This document shows, one piece after another, positions 41,504-53,075 of a stretch of 64,000 nt of DNA. Every line of letters begins with the position of its first letter. Position 1 is the first letter of the stretch. The notes under the pieces are model-generated. The model saw only the letters and a list, made by a program, of their open reading frames with translations. It was not told the origin of the DNA and ran no database searches. The position numbers and the translations under genes are program-made. Origin of the DNA: a bacterium (GTDB taxonomy: Bacteria > CAYTYR01 > UBA6262); NCBI GenBank assembly GCA_028712895.1, contig JAQTPL010000006.1, positions 239 to 64,238 of the forward strand, in the 5' to 3' direction.

Positions 41504-41869
41504 TTAGCCCAGGATCTTCTTCACGCGATCCATTAATTCCTGCGGATGAAAAGGCTTGACGATATAATCCATCGCCCCTAATTCCAGGCTTTTAGCGACA
41601 TCACCTTCCTGCCCGAGCGCGCTTAACATAACCACGGGTATCTGCCTGGTGCTTTCATTTTCCTTTAATCTTCTGGTGGCCTCATTACCATCGATCACCG
41701 GCATCATGATATCCATCAAAATGAGATCTGGGTTTTCCTGGATCGCCAGTTTAACCCCTGCTTCTCCTTCATTAGCGCTGACTACGGTGAAAGCGTTCTT
41801 CTCCAGCAAATACCGCACCATTTTTACCACGCCAGGTTCATCATCAACGATCAAAACCTTTTTGCTCAT
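41504..41869 (-). CDS. Single-domain response regulator (CheY-like receiver)
   Basis: Conserved DD...D...T...K receiver residues ('LIVDDEP', 'LILMDIMMP', 'MLSALGQ', 'DYIVKPF'). Confidence 0.85.
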   Translation of the reverse strand: MSKKVLIVDDEPGVVKMVRYLLEKNAFTVVSANEGEAGVKLAIQENPDLILMDIMMPVIDGNEATRRLKENESTRQIPVVMLSALGQEGDVAKSLELGAMDYIVKPFHPQELMDRVKKILG

Positions 41870-41887
41870 AATCTCACTCCTGTTTAT

Positions 41888-51037: not shown

Positions 51038-51966
51038 TCCTGGAAATCCCCGATCCCCCGCCCTTTGAATAAGGCGATATCAACGACCACGCTGACAAAT
51101 GTGGTTCTTAAGGCCATTTTACTGAGCGCGATCGCTTTGATCAGCACTTTCCGTTTCTTAGGCATTTTTTTAAGTAACGCCGCCAGGTTTCTAGCCTCAG
51201 GGAAAACCTGGTAATTGGGAATAAAAATCAAAAACGCTTCAATATTAAATCCCTGGTAAATTTCTACCAGATTGGCCAGATCCAACTGGGCCCTGAGAGG
51301 ATAGTTATCATCAAAAACATTTTCCAGGCTGAAAGGATGATGTTTCACTGTTTTTAAAACATCCGTTAATCCGGCGAGAAAAAGGCGGGCATTTTCCTGT
51401 TCTCCTTCGGGATATAAAATGCCAACTTTGACTTCATCTTCCTTCGGCACCAGTAACTCTTCCGGCAAATCTTTTTCCTTTTTCAGATACATCGGCTGGA
51501 TCCGGCCGACTTCCAGGGGAATCGGTTCCTCAGTCTCCTGGCCGGGCATCCTGATATCCCCGGGCAAAACAACATTCTTATGCTTGAGCGCTTCTTTGGC
51601 TTCAGCTTTACTGATCCCGCGATCGGATAAATCCTTGATCACCCCGCCAATTTCCCGGGCCAGGTTATCAGCTCTTTCCGGTGCGCCTGTTTTCTTTTTT
51701 GCCTCTGGTAATTCCTGGGCGTCAGCCACGGAAAGCCGCTTCATGAATTTTTCTACTTCCAACCGGGTTTCTTTACTGGACGTATTCAGATAAAAACCCC
51801 AATTATAATCGCCGCGAGCAGCTTTGAGTTGAAAAGGAGGCTGACAAACTTTCTCAAATTTTCCCACCACCCTAAGAACATCTTCACGATCCCCATTAAT
51901 CGATACCAGGTAGCGGTCCTGGTGTTTGTCGTCAAAATAAGATTCTATTTTCCAGCGGATAATCAT
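51034..51966 (-). CDS. Hypothetical protein. Its N- and C-terminal domains are paralogous to the termini of the DnaA-like protein at 44693-46528; it follows pilT.
   Basis: N-terminus 'MIIRWKIESYFDD...INGDREDVLRV...DYNWGFYL' versus '[15 protein letters not shown]...[11 protein letters not shown]...DYNWSFYI'. C-terminus 'VGILYPEGEQE...' versus '[11 protein letters not shown]...'. The start overlaps the pilT stop (ATGA). Confidence 0.5.
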   Translation of the reverse strand: MIIRWKIESYFDDKHQDRYLVSINGDREDVLRVVGKFEKVCQPPFQLKAARGDYNWGFYLNTSSKETRLEVEKFMKRLSVADAQELPEAKKKTGAPERADNLAREIGGVIKDLSDRGISKAEAKEALKHKNVVLPGDIRMPGQETEEPIPLEVGRIQPMYLKKEKDLPEELLVPKEDEVKVGILYPEGEQENARLFLAGLTDVLKTVKHHPFSLENVFDDNYPLRAQLDLANLVEIYQGFNIEAFLIFIPNYQVFPEARNLAALLKKMPKKRKVLIKAIALSKMALRTTFVSVVVDIALFKGRGIGDFQD

Positions 51967-53075
51967 TATTTATCCCTCTTGCTTTGGTTATTATTTTCAT
52001 CAACTCCGGTGTAAATACCCCGAACGCTCAACATGAGTTCATCCGGATTAGTAGCATTATCCAGAGCATCTTCCAGGGAGATCTTCCCTTCTTTGTACAA
52101 ATTTAAAAGCGACAGATCAAATGATTGCATGCCGTAAAAAGCTCCCTGTTGCATAGCGGTATAAATACCGGCATCCTTGCCTTCGGCAATCAATTTTCTG
52201 ACAAAAGGGGTAACTGTCAGGATCTCGATGGCCGGGATCCGGCCTTCCTGATCGACCCGCGGGATCAGACGCTGCGCAATAATACCACGCAGGATCTGGC
52301 TGAGCGTCATTCTGATCTGGGTTTGCTGATGCGGAGAATACATATCAACAATACGGTTGACGGTATGGACAGCATCGATAGTGTGAACCGTGGAAATAAC
52401 CAAGTGCCCGGTTTCTCCCCCCATAATAGCGGCATTGACTGTTTCAAAATCTCTCATTTCCCCGATCACGATGACATCCGGGTCCTGGCGCAAGACATGT
52501 TTCAGCGCCTGGCCGAAAGACTTGGTATCGCTGCCCACTTCCCGCTGGCTGACCGTGCTCATTTTATCATTATGATAAAACTCAACGGGATCCTCGATCG
52601 TAATAATATTAGAGCGGCGGGTGGAATTAATAAAATCGATCATAGTGTTTAGGGTAGTAGTTTTACCGGCACCGGTAATCCCGGCAATCAAAATAAGACC
52701 GCGGTTATGGCTGGTTATTTTACGCATCGTTTCGCTGGGCAGGTTTAATTCTTCAAAGGTTTTAGGCGAGGGAGGAATAACCCGCAAACTTAACGCGATC
52801 CCGCCTTTTTGCCGGTATAAGTTGACCCGAAAACGAGATACTCCCTCTACTTCGTAGCCAAGGTCTAGTTCATCATCTTTCTCGAATTTTTTTTGTTGTT
52901 TCTCATTCATCAGGTTATAGGCCAGCTGTTCGATATTCTCGCTGGTTAAAGGACTGGATTCAGCAGCCATTAGTTTACCATTAAACCGCAGCATAGGAGG
53001 ACTGCCTGCTTTGAAGTGAATATCTGAGATACTGCGTTTGACCATCAGTTGCAAGAGATCGTCAACATTCATCAT
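51966..53075 (-). CDS. pilT: Type IV pilus retraction ATPase PilT
   Basis: Walker A 'GITGAGKTTT', the PilT-specific 'AIRNLIREGK'-like region 'FVRKLIAEGK', and the His box; 369 aa. Confidence 0.9.
   Translation of the reverse strand: MMNVDDLLQLMVKRSISDIHFKAGSPPMLRFNGKLMAAESSPLTSENIEQLAYNLMNEKQQKKFEKDDELDLGYEVEGVSRFRVNLYRQKGGIALSLRVIPPSPKTFEELNLPSETMRKITSHNRGLILIAGITGAGKTTTLNTMIDFINSTRRSNIITIEDPVEFYHNDKMSTVSQREVGSDTKSFGQALKHVLRQDPDVIVIGEMRDFETVNAAIMGGETGHLVISTVHTIDAVHTVNRIVDMYSPHQQTQIRMTLSQILRGIIAQRLIPRVDQEGRIPAIEILTVTPFVRKLIAEGKDAGIYTAMQQGAFYGMQSFDLSLLNLYKEGKISLEDALDNATNPDELMLSVRGIYTGVDENNNQSKRDK

What the first reader, a model, noticed from the sequence alone, without database searches (positions are those of the whole stretch)
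41504..53075. An 11.5-kb co-directional gene string linking pilT to glycine cleavage, a DnaA-like ATPase, a lipoate ligase and a two-component system
On the minus strand the genes run pilT, X, gcvT, gcvH, gcvPA, gcvPB, DnaA-like, lplA/lipM-like, a HAMP-GAF histidine kinase and a CheY-like receiver. Stop and start codons overlap or lie only a few bp apart at pilT/X, X/gcvT, gcvH/gcvPA, DnaA-like/lplA and lplA/HK, and the HK/REC gap is 18 bp. The lplA-gcv linkage is expected, because lipoylation of GcvH requires it. Embedding that metabolic operon between a twitching-motility ATPase, a replication-initiator paralog and a sensory system is not expected.
Basis: seen in the sequence. Interest (0 to 1): 0.6.

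Follow-up and report, generated by a model that had tools for sequence, protein, structure and literature searches.

The report
Mosaic gene string with DnaA-like ATPase
The ten-gene run is real, but in this one clade of Elusimicrobiota a glycine-cleavage operon and a lipoate ligase sit inside a gene neighbourhood that is conserved across the phylum, and the notable part of that neighbourhood is an undescribed DnaA-derived ATPase carrying an Argonaute-MID-like domain where DnaA has its DNA-binding domain.

Summary
Observation confirmed. All ten minus-strand genes and every stated junction distance are as described.

Co-direction is not special here. 55 of 62 likely genes in the window are on the minus strand, and the string lies inside a 32-gene, 34-kb same-strand run.

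Synteny across 70 Elusimicrobiota species shows a conserved backbone: tpi-rpiB-deoC-pilT-X-DnaA-like-HK-REC-tkt. The gcvT-H-PA-PB genes plus lplA occur there in only 6 of 70 species, all in the window's clade. They occupy two slots on either side of the DnaA-like gene. So the link between glycine cleavage and pilT, DnaA-like and the sensor genes is clade-specific and most likely positional.

The more interesting result is the DnaA-like protein.
- It keeps a complete DnaA AAA+ domain, aligned without gaps to B. subtilis DnaA.
- It lacks domains I and IV.
- It has a ferredoxin-like N-domain and a C-domain that resembles the Argonaute MID domain in fold and in weak profile matches.
- "X" is its ATPase-less paralogue.

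Whether a canonical DnaA coexists in these genomes could not be tested.

The parts
53076..53321 (-). 246-nt spacer between deoC and pilT. It holds a structured element bounded by 37-nt inverted repeats (53089-53125 and 53284-53320) and contains a terminator-like hairpin (53233-53216). It is the likely 5' boundary of the transcription unit in this genome.
   Evidence: Inverted repeat 86% complementary. Fold -95.7 kcal/mol, z -5.9. Terminator-like site. Absent in relatives, where the deoC-pilT gap is 11 nt and 1 nt. Single copy in the window and absent from the 75 loci fetched by then and from metagenome contigs.
51966..53075 (-). pilT, a PilT/PilU-family type IVa pilus ATPase (369 aa).
   Evidence: TIGR01420 444 bits against a cut-off of 319.1; PF00437. 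Upstream of the DnaA-like gene in 30 of 50 species loci with enough flank.
51034..51966 (-). X (310 aa), the ATPase-less paralogue of the DnaA-like protein. N-domain about residues 1-79 (51730-51966), a linker, then C-domain about residues 178-303 (51058-51435).
   Evidence: No Pfam, NCBIfam or PADLOC family. BLASTP to the DnaA-like protein: N-terminus E 3e-8, C-terminus E 1e-4. Family HMMs: N-domain E 3e-16, C-domain E 1e-12. hhalign 97.2%, E 2.8e-11. One or two copies lie between pilT and the DnaA-like gene in many loci.
49937..51037 (-). gcvT, aminomethyltransferase. Its TTG start overlaps the stop codon of X by 4 nt.
   Evidence: TIGR00528 373 bits against 235.85. Residues 1-363 align from model position 3, which supports the TTG start. 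Junction.
49829..49936 (-). gcvT-gcvH spacer: a hairpin whose arms are built from heptamer repeats (CGTAGCT-like units and their complement).
   Evidence: Tandem repeat at 49904-49927. MFE -31.2 kcal/mol, z -3.55. The same spacer in the 89%-identical relative L001 has a hairpin built from a different heptamer. It is absent in L002.
49439..49828 (-). gcvH, the lipoyl carrier H-protein, with the lipoyl-lysine motif ESVKAVSD.
   Evidence: TIGR00527 166.4 bits against 115.85. Sequence.
48096..49436 (-). gcvPA, glycine dehydrogenase subunit 1.
   Evidence: NF001696 641.6 bits against 364.
48033..48095 (-). gcvPA-gcvPB spacer with 5.4 direct copies of the heptamer TAGCGTA. It is not a stable structure.
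   Evidence: Tandem Repeats Finder 48051-48088, 93% matches. Fold z +1.49.
46581..48032 (-). gcvPB, glycine dehydrogenase subunit 2.
   Evidence: NF003346 704.1 bits against 441.
44693..46528 (-). DnaA-like protein (611 aa). Ferredoxin-like N-domain (residues 1-88; 46265-46528). Complete DnaA AAA+ domain III (residues 123-388; 45365-46162). Pro/Glu-rich linker (45074-45364). Argonaute-MID-like C-domain (residues 486-611; 44696-45073). No DnaA domain I or IV.
   Evidence: PF00308 238 bits; TIGR00362 positions 83-349 of 437 only. Gapless alignment to PDB 8btg DnaA residues 103-350, E 7e-99. N-domain model pLDDT 93; C-domain model pLDDT 88. Foldseek best matches are Argonaute MID domains. PADLOC pAgo models match in their MID region. 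The family is found only in Elusimicrobiota: 70 species loci and 108 cluster representatives among 1.84 billion proteins.
43881..44687 (-). lplA-like gene, encoding a lipoate/octanoate protein ligase catalytic domain (268 aa); subfamily undetermined.
   Evidence: PF21948 114.5 bits. No NCBIfam equivalog cut-off is reached; best is LplA_large 96.5 against 480. Present at this position only in the window's clade.
41888..43894 (-). HAMP-GAF-HisKA-HATPase sensor histidine kinase (668 aa).
   Evidence: Pfam domains. A histidine kinase lies immediately downstream of the DnaA-like gene in 29 of 60 species loci, and also in the divergent locus L078.
41504..41869 (-). Single-domain response regulator (REC only, 121 aa).
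   Evidence: PF00072 108.8 bits. An HK-REC pair follows the DnaA-like gene in several clades.
53322..55221 (-). Upstream conserved flank: tpi (54466-55221), rpiB (54003-54452) and deoC (53322-53996).
   Evidence: Pfam. At least one of these lies upstream of the DnaA-like gene in 50 of 50 species loci with enough flank, and in the divergent loci L076 and L077.
39477..41331 (-). Downstream conserved flank: split transketolase (tktN 40522-41331, tktC 39477-40421).
   Evidence: Pfam. tkt lies downstream in 28 of 60 loci.

Best explanation
The string is a mosaic of two layers.

Shown. An old Elusimicrobiota gene neighbourhood, tpi-rpiB-deoC-pilT-X-DnaA-like-HK-REC-tkt, lies on the strand that carries almost all genes in this window. 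In one clade, the window's, gcvT-gcvH-gcvPA-gcvPB sits between X and the DnaA-like gene, and an lplA-like ligase sits between the DnaA-like gene and the kinase.

Inferred. The gcv and lplA genes do their ordinary job. The P protein (PA plus PB) decarboxylates glycine onto the lipoyl arm of H. T passes the C1 unit to tetrahydrofolate. The ligase lipoylates H. These genes are expressed by read-through within a long, tightly packed polycistronic unit. In this genome that unit probably starts after the structured 246-nt element upstream of pilT and ends after REC. Their neighbours are positional, not functional, partners.

Inferred, less certain. The functionally coupled set is pilT-X-DnaA-like-HK-REC. 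The DnaA-like protein keeps every ATP-binding, arginine-finger and sensor motif of DnaA domain III, so it should still form ATP-dependent DnaA-type oligomers. It cannot read DnaA boxes because it lacks domain IV. Instead it carries a MID-like pocket domain, a candidate binding site for a nucleotide or for a nucleic-acid 5' end, and a small ferredoxin-like N-domain that is also found on X and on neighbouring GGDEF cyclases. I take it to be a DnaA paralogue that works as a ligand-gated ATP switch together with X, under the adjacent two-component system. The most likely action is modulating DnaA-type filaments or a pilus-linked process. I do not take it to be the chromosomal initiator.
For: Gene identities and junctions.

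Strand bias and the 32-gene run.

Synteny.
- Close relatives keep the full order.
- Relatives at 37-39% identity have pilT-X-DnaA-like directly adjacent, followed by proS-rimP-nusA.
- Across 70 GTDB species loci: sugar genes upstream 50/50, pilT 30/50, HK 29/60, full gcv plus lplA 6/70.
- The nearest gcv-less layout is, for example, L030: rpiB-deoC-pilT-X-DnaA-like-HK-REC-tkt.
- The divergent loci L076 and L077 have tpi-deoC-DnaA-like with no gcv genes; the third, L078, has DnaA-like followed by a GAF histidine kinase, also with no gcv genes.
- In bootstrapped NJ trees the window clade has 100% support and is never sister to the gcvH-only clade.
- GC content of the gcv block is unremarkable.

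In relative L002 the gaps from deoC through tkt are 1-68 nt, so tight packing extends beyond the 11.5 kb.

DnaA-like protein.
- Gapless alignment to B. subtilis DnaA domain III with Walker A, Walker B, box VII and sensor II intact.
- No PF08299 or PF11638 in any of about 90 family members.
- X is a paralogue.
- The N-domain also occurs on GGDEF proteins in the same neighbourhood.
- MID-like C-domain.
- No GC-skew switch or strand switch near the gene, so it is not at an origin.

Literature: a DnaA pseudogene is reported in Ca. Endomicrobium trichonymphae (PMC5174739). PMC5109545 describes Elusimicrobia dciA as lying within or beside the dnaA-dnaN-recF-gyrB-gyrA replication operon. Both suggest, but do not show, that ordinary dnaA exists in the phylum.
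Against: - No transcript data exist. Promoter and terminator scans are at background inside the string (31 promoter-like sites against 28.6 expected), so unit boundaries are guesses.
- gcvH alone sits between pilT and the DnaA-like gene in a second, non-sister clade (L061, L062, L064, L067). Two independent arrivals of gcvH at the same junction is odd and leaves room for a real functional link.
- gcv and lplA flank the DnaA-like gene on both sides, which a single block insertion cannot produce.
- I could not show that a canonical DnaA coexists in these genomes.
- The MID assignment rests on marginal profile E-values (1e-6 to 1e-4) and TM-scores of 0.55-0.70 on a common Rossmann-like fold. Lumazine synthase and PTS IIB score similarly.
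- The trees are NJ on 261 columns only.
Confidence: 0.65

Rival explanations
1. Functional super-operon. Glycine cleavage, lipoylation, pilus retraction, the DnaA-like ATPase and the two-component system are co-regulated because they serve one physiological programme, for example linking glycine or C1 status to growth, replication or surface behaviour.
For: Overlapping or near-zero junctions at pilT/X, X/gcvT, gcvH/gcvPA, DnaA-like/lplA and lplA/HK. The full order is kept in 6 species of the clade, down to 69% identity of the DnaA-like protein. gcvH recurs between pilT and the DnaA-like gene in a second clade.
Against: 60 of 70 species loci have the backbone without any gcv gene, and 64 of 70 lack lplA. 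The whole window is a functionally mixed same-strand string that includes gltX, hisG, tpi, tkt, phosphorylases, kinases and GGDEF/HD-GYP proteins. No glycine riboswitch or other Rfam element was found.
Confidence: 0.1
2. The DnaA-like protein is the clade's actual replication initiator. Domain IV has been replaced by the MID-like domain as a new origin-recognition or loading module, and X is a regulator that competes for the same site.
For: The AAA+ domain is as similar to bona fide DnaA as DnaAs of different phyla are to each other: 53-65% identity, a gapless alignment, and a TIGR00362 score of 372.9 above the 343.9 cut-off even without domains I and IV. Neither homologue search listed a canonical DnaA labelled Elusimicrobiota among its best 120.
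Against: The gene is not near any GC-skew or strand switch, nor near dnaN. The family was found in only 70 GTDB species and in no cultured Elusimicrobium or Endomicrobium. Literature points to ordinary dnaA in the phylum (PMC5174739, PMC5109545). My searches for canonical DnaA were biased and uninformative rather than negative.
Confidence: 0.12
3. pilT-X-DnaA-like is a nucleic-acid handling module. PilT retracts pili that bring in DNA. The MID-like domain captures a 5' end and the DnaA-type AAA+ domain coats the single strand. The purpose would be uptake, salvage (the neighbours are deoC, deoB and nucleoside phosphorylases) or defence.
For: MID-like C-domain. DnaA domain III is a known ssDNA-binding filament former (established knowledge). 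PilT adjacency in 30 of 50 loci. The flanking genes are deoxyribose and nucleoside catabolism genes. Two of three divergent family loci have ComM and DprA a few kb downstream.
Against: ComM and DprA are absent from all 70 main-family loci. 20 of 50 loci lack pilT. No other defence-system protein was detected by PADLOC. No com genes lie in the cluster. The MID pocket residues were not examined.
Confidence: 0.13

Closest known systems
Chromosomal replication initiator DnaA (TIGR00362; Pfam PF11638 + PF00308 + PF08299)
   Same: A full AAA+ domain III. It aligns without gaps to B. subtilis DnaA residues 103-350, with Walker A, Walker B, the box VII arginine finger and sensor II present. Public pipelines name it DnaA.
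   Different: It has no domain I or II and no domain IV helix-turn-helix. It has a new ferredoxin-like N-domain, a long Pro/Glu linker and a MID-like C-domain. It is not next to dnaN or a skew switch. It forms a monophyletic Elusimicrobiota-only family (95% NJ bootstrap against 8 canonical DnaAs).
Hda / HdaA (DnaA-related regulators of DnaA-ATP hydrolysis)
   Same: A DnaA-type AAA+ protein without a DNA-binding domain that could act on DnaA oligomers through the arginine finger.
   Different: TIGR03420 scores 112.6 against a cut-off of 194.8. No clamp-binding motif in 0 of 60 family members. It is about 600 aa with two extra domains, and it is much closer to DnaA proper than to Hda.
Argonaute MID domain (5'-end binding pocket of pAgo and eAgo)
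   Same: The C-domain model is a four-stranded parallel Rossmann-like fold. Its best PDB matches are hAGO2 MID (TM 0.64), CpAgo (TMq 0.70) and Aquifex Ago. Six PADLOC pAgo profiles match it, and in the four whose coordinates are listed (for the window protein) the match falls in the MID region; 12 of 35 family members match the best profile.
   Different: There are no PIWI, PAZ or N domains. Identity is 10-19%. No match in Pfam or in a PDB sequence-profile search. The pocket residues were not checked. The domain is fused to an AAA+ ATPase, which I did not find described.
gcvT-gcvH-gcvPA-gcvPB(-lplA) glycine-cleavage operons with a two-subunit P protein, known from other bacteria (stated from my own knowledge)
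   Same: The same four genes in the same order, tight gcvH/gcvPA coupling, and a lipoate ligase nearby.
   Different: No glycine riboswitch. The operon is translationally coupled to an unrelated upstream gene (X), and it is separated from lplA by the DnaA-like gene.
Conserved mixed-function gene strings ('uber-operons') in compact, strand-biased genomes
   Same: A long same-strand run with short gaps and order conserved over deep divergence, despite mixed functions.
   Different: Within the string, three proteins share lineage-specific domains (the N-domain on X, on the DnaA-like protein and on GGDEF proteins; the C-domain on X and the DnaA-like protein). This argues for a true functional core rather than mere inertia.

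Membership tests
Glycine cleavage system | T protein (aminomethyltransferase) above the curated cut-off | tested here: met
   TIGR00528 373.2 bits against 235.85
Glycine cleavage system | H protein with a lipoyl-lysine motif | tested here: met
   TIGR00527 166.4 bits against 115.85; motif ESVKAVSD in the sequence
Glycine cleavage system | P protein, as two subunits PA and PB | tested here: met
   NF001696 641.6 bits against 364; NF003346 704.1 bits against 441
Glycine cleavage system | L protein (dihydrolipoyl dehydrogenase) available in the genome | not testable with these tools
   It is not in the string. The rest of the genome is not available.
Riboswitch-controlled gcvT operon (Bacillus type) | Glycine riboswitch upstream of gcvT | tested here: not met
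   No Rfam match at gathering threshold in the window, nor at E<=1 in 41300-53400. The gcvT start overlaps the stop of X.
DnaA replication initiator | AAA+ domain III with Walker A/B, box VII arginine finger and sensor II | tested here: met
   PF00308 238 bits. Gapless alignment to 8btg with [25 protein letters not shown] and SNIRELEG.
DnaA replication initiator | Domain IV DnaA-box-binding helix-turn-helix (PF08299) | tested here: not met
   No PF08299 in the protein or in any family member. TIGR00362 matches only positions 83-349 of 437. No domain IV in the window or the loci.
DnaA replication initiator | Domain I (PF11638) | tested here: not met
   Absent. It is replaced by a ferredoxin-like N-domain.
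DnaA replication initiator | Sole DnaA homologue of the genome, or origin-proximal | tested here: inconclusive
   No skew or strand switch within the 64-kb window. Coexistence with a canonical DnaA could not be checked.
Hda / HdaA | Curated family score and an N-terminal beta-clamp-binding motif | tested here: not met
   TIGR03420 112.6 bits against 194.8. The motif Q[LVIM]x[LVIM]x[LFIM] is absent upstream of the AAA+ domain in 60 of 60 members.
PilT/PilU type IVa pilus ATPase | Curated subfamily score | tested here: met
   TIGR01420 444 bits against 319.1
Argonaute MID domain | MID-type Rossmann-like fold | tested here: met
   Model pLDDT 88. The best Foldseek PDB hits are Argonaute MID domains, E 4e-5, TM 0.57-0.70. 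Other Rossmann-like folds score close behind.
Argonaute MID domain | Sequence-profile relationship to the MID region of pAgo proteins | tested here: inconclusive
   PADLOC PprPIWI positions 329-437 of 666 at E 1e-6, plus five pAgo models; 12 of 35 members hit. Nothing in Pfam or the PDB sequence-profile search.
Argonaute MID domain | 5'-phosphate pocket residues (Y/H/R-K ... Q ... K) | not tested
   No residue-level superposition was available.
Argonaute (whole protein) | PIWI domain | tested here: not met
   Only the MID-like region matches. The rest of the protein is DnaA AAA+.
Single operon (one transcription unit) | Same strand with short or overlapping junctions | tested here: met
   Nine junctions from -14 to 108 nt
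Single operon (one transcription unit) | Order conserved in relatives | tested here: not met
   The full order occurs in only 6 of 70 species. The backbone without gcv and lplA is widely conserved.
Single operon (one transcription unit) | One transcript; no internal promoters or terminators | not testable with these tools
   Consensus scans are at background. No RNA data.
Two-component system | HisKA + HATPase_c kinase with an adjacent receiver | tested here: met
   PF00512, PF02518, PF00672, PF01590 and PF00072
Lipoate-protein ligase (LplA, LipM or LipL) | Catalytic domain, and assignment to a subfamily | tested here: inconclusive
   PF21948 114.5 bits (met). No NCBIfam equivalog cut-off is reached; best is 96.5 against 480.

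The most novel reading that the evidence does not exclude
A subset of Elusimicrobiota (70 GTDB species found here) carries a previously undescribed ATP-driven machine. It is a DnaA-type AAA+ filament former whose origin-reading domain has been replaced by an Argonaute-MID-like pocket that could bind a 5' end or a nucleotide. It works with an ATPase-less paralogue (X), a PilT motor and a dedicated GAF kinase with a receiver. It would be either the clade's real replication initiator with a non-HTH recognition module, or a new pilus-linked module for DNA uptake, salvage or defence. Under this reading the repeated appearance of gcvH beside it reflects a true, still unknown, functional tie.
Probability: 0.2. 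Interest if true: 0.85.

Novelty: new variant of a known kind. Interest (0 to 1): 0.55.

Why it matters
As stated, the finding is mostly an ordinary consequence of genome architecture. In a strongly strand-biased, compact genome, a metabolic operon can sit inside an unrelated conserved string. That is worth knowing so that such strings are not over-read as operons.

The by-product matters more. DnaA domain III is among the most conserved modules in bacteria and is almost always tied to domain IV. A phylum-restricted family keeps that module almost unchanged but couples it to a MID-like domain. It also has an ATPase-less paralogue and conserved PilT and histidine-kinase neighbours. This gives a concrete handle on two questions. 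One is how DnaA-type oligomers can be regulated or re-used. The other is whether MID-type pockets act outside Argonautes.

Public pipelines currently name these proteins 'chromosomal replication initiator protein DnaA'. That label is probably wrong and could mislead surveys of origins and replication genes in Elusimicrobiota.

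Tried and rejected
- Glycine riboswitch or any other known RNA in the string: none.
- Promoter and terminator scans: at background inside the string.
- Known defence systems: PADLOC gave only the MID-region hits and generic ATPase or receiver noise.
- Hda-like clamp-binding motif: absent in 60 of 60 members.
- Competence link: ComM and DprA lie near two divergent family members but in none of the 70 main loci, so I demoted it.
- Recent horizontal transfer of the gcv block: GC content is unremarkable.
- The 246-nt inverted-repeat element as a repeated MITE: single copy in the window, absent from the 75 loci fetched by then and from metagenome contigs.
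- Search for a canonical DnaA in the same genomes, three attempts.
  - The top 'canonical' hits P0087 and P0091 are internally duplicated misassemblies from an unrelated assembly.
  - Cluster look-up gave no names.
  - A chimeric query (the window's AAA+ domain plus a canonical domain IV) returned only Margulisbacteria and Saganbacteria DnaA, because I borrowed the domain IV from that group.
- Literature on Elusimicrobia dnaA: only indirect statements. The key genome papers are not held.
- N-domain fold search: only weak matches to ferredoxin-like folds (PII-like PstA, Rpb11, ACT), E >= 0.02, so no function is assigned.
- A PDB sequence-profile search with the C-domain found nothing meaningful.

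Full report
**1. Observation**

The ten minus-strand ORFs exist at the stated coordinates. Pfam and NCBIfam confirm them:
- PilT: TIGR01420 444 bits against a cut-off of 319.
- GcvT, GcvH, GcvPA and GcvPB: all above their equivalog cut-offs.
- An LplA/B catalytic-domain protein.
- A HAMP-GAF-HisKA-HATPase kinase.
- A receiver-only response regulator.
- X matches no family.

**2. Context that changes its weight**

- GC skew is negative across all 64 kb.
- A greedy gene set puts 55 of 62 genes on the minus strand. The uninterrupted minus-strand run is 32 genes, from 23597 to 57767.
- The run mixes gltX, hisG, tpi, rpiB, deoC, split transketolase, phosphopentomutase, nucleoside phosphorylases, a phosphate transporter, and several kinases, GGDEF and HD-GYP proteins.
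- Co-direction and functional heterogeneity are therefore the norm here, not a property of these 11.5 kb.
- Promoter-like sites are at background (31 against 28.6 expected).
- The only terminator-like hairpin in a spacer of the string lies in the 246-nt gap upstream of pilT.
- No glycine riboswitch or other Rfam family is present.

**3. Spacers**

The gcvT-gcvH spacer folds into a significant hairpin (-31.2 kcal/mol, z -3.55). Its arms are arrays of heptamers and their complements. The gcvPA-gcvPB spacer is 5.4 direct copies of TAGCGTA with no stable fold (z +1.49).

Heptamer arrays occur in at least seven spacers across the window. In the 89%-identical relative L001, the same gcvT-gcvH spacer carries a hairpin built from a different heptamer. 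In L002 the spacers are 1-40 nt and repeat-free. These repeats are a fast-evolving, genome-wide spacer feature and are not specific to this cluster.

**4. Who carries it**

The DnaA-like protein has about 90 full-length homologues of roughly 550-730 aa. Where a source names them, they come from Elusimicrobiota or Endomicrobiia MAGs. None has DnaA_N or DnaA_C.

A scan of one genome per GTDB species with the C-terminal domain profile found 70 loci. All are Elusimicrobiota-type MAGs, some mislabelled, and no cultured strain is among them. An exhaustive HMMER pass of the C-domain over 1.84 billion cluster representatives found only 108 proteins, with the domain always at the C-terminus.

**5. Synteny**

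- Close relatives (89% and 69% identity) keep deoC-pilT-X-gcvTHPAPB-DnaA-like-lplA-HK-REC-tkt.
- Relatives at 37-39% identity have rpiB-...-deoC-(GGDEF)-pilT-X-DnaA-like-proS-rimP-nusA, with no gcv, lplA, HK or REC.
- Over the 70 species loci:
  - tpi, rpiB or deoC upstream in 50 of 50 loci with enough flank;
  - pilT within 3.6 kb upstream in 30 of 50;
  - a histidine kinase immediately downstream in 29 of 60;
  - tkt downstream in 28 of 60;
  - any gcv gene in 10 of 70;
  - the full gcvTHPAPB plus lplA in 6 of 70, all in the window's clade.
- Two of the three divergent loci, L076 and L077, have tpi-deoC-DnaA-like. The third, L078, has DnaA-like followed by a GAF kinase. None of the three has gcv genes.

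The backbone is old. At this place gcv and lplA are clade-specific. They occupy two different slots, one before and one after the DnaA-like gene, so a single block insertion does not explain them.

One observation remains unexplained. A second clade (L061, L062, L064, L067) has a genuine gcvH, with the lipoyl-lysine motif, alone between pilT and the DnaA-like gene. In 100 NJ bootstraps of the AAA+ domain this clade is never sister to the window clade. The window clade (100% support) branches opposite all other members (100% support).

**6. The DnaA-like protein**

- Residues 135-382 align without a single gap to B. subtilis DnaA residues 103-350 (PDB 8btg, E 7e-99). Walker A (GLGKTHL), Walker B (LLIDDVQF), box VII ([10 protein letters not shown], which holds the arginine finger) and sensor II (SNIRELEG) are all present.
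- TIGR00362 is exceeded (372.9 against 343.9) even though only model positions 83-349 of 437 match.
- After residue 388 comes a Pro/Glu-rich linker and then a 125-residue C-domain.
- Before residue 123 lie an 88-residue N-domain and a variable linker.
- It is not Hda-like. The Hda family score is below cut-off, and no clamp-binding motif is found in 60 of 60 members.
- The family is monophyletic against eight canonical DnaAs in 95% of NJ bootstraps.

**7. The two new domains**

The C-domain model (pLDDT 88) is a beta-alpha repeat with a four-stranded parallel sheet. Its best PDB matches are Argonaute MID domains: hAGO2 MID at TM 0.64, CpAgo at TMq 0.70 with 19% identity, and Aquifex Ago. Lumazine synthase and PTS IIB follow closely.

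Independently, six PADLOC pAgo profiles match the C-domain. For the window protein the listed matches fall in the MID region: PprPIWI 329-437 of 666 at E 1e-6, long pAgos around 334-450 of about 680, and a short pAgo at 43-172 of 460. Twelve of 35 family members match PprPIWI, and 9 and 8 match two further pAgo models. Pfam and a PDB sequence-profile search find nothing.

I call the domain MID-like. I treat homology as likely but not proven, and the pocket residues were not examined.

The N-domain model (pLDDT 93) is a small ferredoxin-like fold. It has only weak matches to PII-like PstA, Rpb11 and ACT domains.

**8. X is a paralogue**

- X shares the N-domain (BLASTP E 3e-8; HMM E 3e-16) and the C-domain (BLASTP E 1e-4; HMM E 1e-12; hhalign 97.2%, E 2.8e-11) with the DnaA-like protein, and lacks the ATPase.
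- X-like genes, sometimes two in a row, lie between pilT and the DnaA-like gene in many clades.
- In the Endomicrobiia-type loci, X keeps only the C-domain.
- The N-domain also heads GGDEF diguanylate cyclases located between deoC and pilT in several loci.

Shared lineage-specific domains among neighbouring genes are the best argument that pilT-X-DnaA-like(-HK-REC) is a functional core.

**9. Mechanism**

Shown: domain content, intact ATPase motifs, paralogy and conserved neighbours.

Inferred:
- The protein still forms ATP-dependent DnaA-type oligomers.
- It cannot read DnaA boxes.
- Its MID-like pocket binds a phosphorylated ligand or a nucleic-acid 5' end.
- X acts as adaptor or competitor through the same domains.
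- The adjacent kinase and receiver supply the control.

I favour a DnaA paralogue acting as a regulated switch. The gene is not at an origin-like skew switch, and the literature indicates ordinary dnaA in the phylum (PMC5174739, PMC5109545). I could not test coexistence. A sole-initiator reading, or a DNA-uptake, salvage or defence reading, remains open.

**10. Verdict**

The string is real and, in this clade, probably one long transcription unit. The juxtaposition of glycine cleavage with pilT, the DnaA-like gene and the sensor genes is a clade-specific arrangement within a conserved string, not evidence of a shared programme.

The recurring gcvH next to the DnaA-like gene in a second clade is the one observation that keeps a functional tie alive. 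The noteworthy discovery is the DnaA(AAA+)-MID-like family with its paralogue X. I found no description of it, and databases currently mislabel it as DnaA.

Noticed in passing
window 3487-3552, 40486-40514, 41354-41439, 48051-48088, 49904-49927, 58818-58848, 60655-60686: Many intergenic spacers hold short arrays of heptamer repeats, with a different unit at each site. Often the array is paired with an inverted array so that the spacer forms a hairpin. At the gcvT-gcvH spacer, an 89%-identical relative (L001 6608-6707) has the same architecture built from a different heptamer, and a 69% relative has none. This looks like a fast-turnover, genome-wide spacer element of unknown origin.
   Followed up: partly
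window 53076-53321: A GC-rich, strongly structured 246-nt spacer (z -5.9) holding an element bounded by 37-nt inverted repeats lies between deoC and pilT. In relatives those two genes are 1-11 nt apart. There is no Rfam match, no second copy in the window, and no match in the 75 loci fetched by then or in metagenome contigs. It could be a solitary MITE-like insertion or a small structured RNA carrying a terminator-like hairpin.
   Followed up: partly
L061 3597-4034, L062 1512-1949, L064 6535-6984, L067 7654-8088: In a separate Elusimicrobiota clade, a bona fide gcvH (lipoyl-lysine motif ESAKxVSD) sits alone between pilT and the DnaA-like gene, in the place of X and without gcvT or gcvP. This clade is never sister to the window clade in NJ bootstraps.
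   Followed up: partly
L017 5165-6589, L020 4202-5653, L021 5350-6792, L024 5449-6753 (weak hit in L004 6566-8032): The ferredoxin-like N-domain of X and the DnaA-like protein also forms the N-terminus of GGDEF diguanylate cyclases encoded between deoC and pilT. This suggests a shared docking or dimerisation module and a c-di-GMP connection.
   Followed up: no
L076 8001-11564, L077 2840-5836, L078 8001-9935: A divergent subfamily (644-1187 aa) has long unannotated N-terminal regions, a weaker DnaA AAA+ domain and the same C-domain. It is again placed after tpi-deoC or before a GAF kinase. Two of the three loci have ComM and DprA a few kb downstream.
   Followed up: partly
L036, L045, L046, L057, L066 (between pilT and the DnaA-like gene): Some species carry two tandem X paralogues (N-domain plus C-domain) instead of one.
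   Followed up: no
window 61613-63046, 63082-63987, 56526-57767, 33031-34401, 25678-27171: The window is dense in signalling genes: a REC-GAF-GGDEF protein, a HAMP kinase, an HDOD/HD-GYP protein, a PAS-HD-GYP protein and a DUF4118 kinase. c-di-GMP turnover enzymes therefore flank the cluster.
   Followed up: no
Loci L010, L031, L037, L039, L040, L043, L047, L059, L061, L067, L068, L073 (record titles): Several MAGs carrying this Elusimicrobiota-specific family are titled 'Clostridia bacterium' or 'Ignavibacteria bacterium' in their public records. These are probably taxonomic mislabels.
   Followed up: no
P0087 (L075 1507-3180) and P0091: Two 'DnaA' proteins that ranked just below the family contain an internal duplication of the Walker A region. 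This is most likely an assembly artefact that inflates their scores.
   Followed up: yes
window 57870-58475 (+) against tRNAs at 58102-58175 and 58658-58730 (-): The 201-aa plus-strand ORF has no family match and overlaps a minus-strand tRNA gene. It is probably not a real gene.
   Followed up: no
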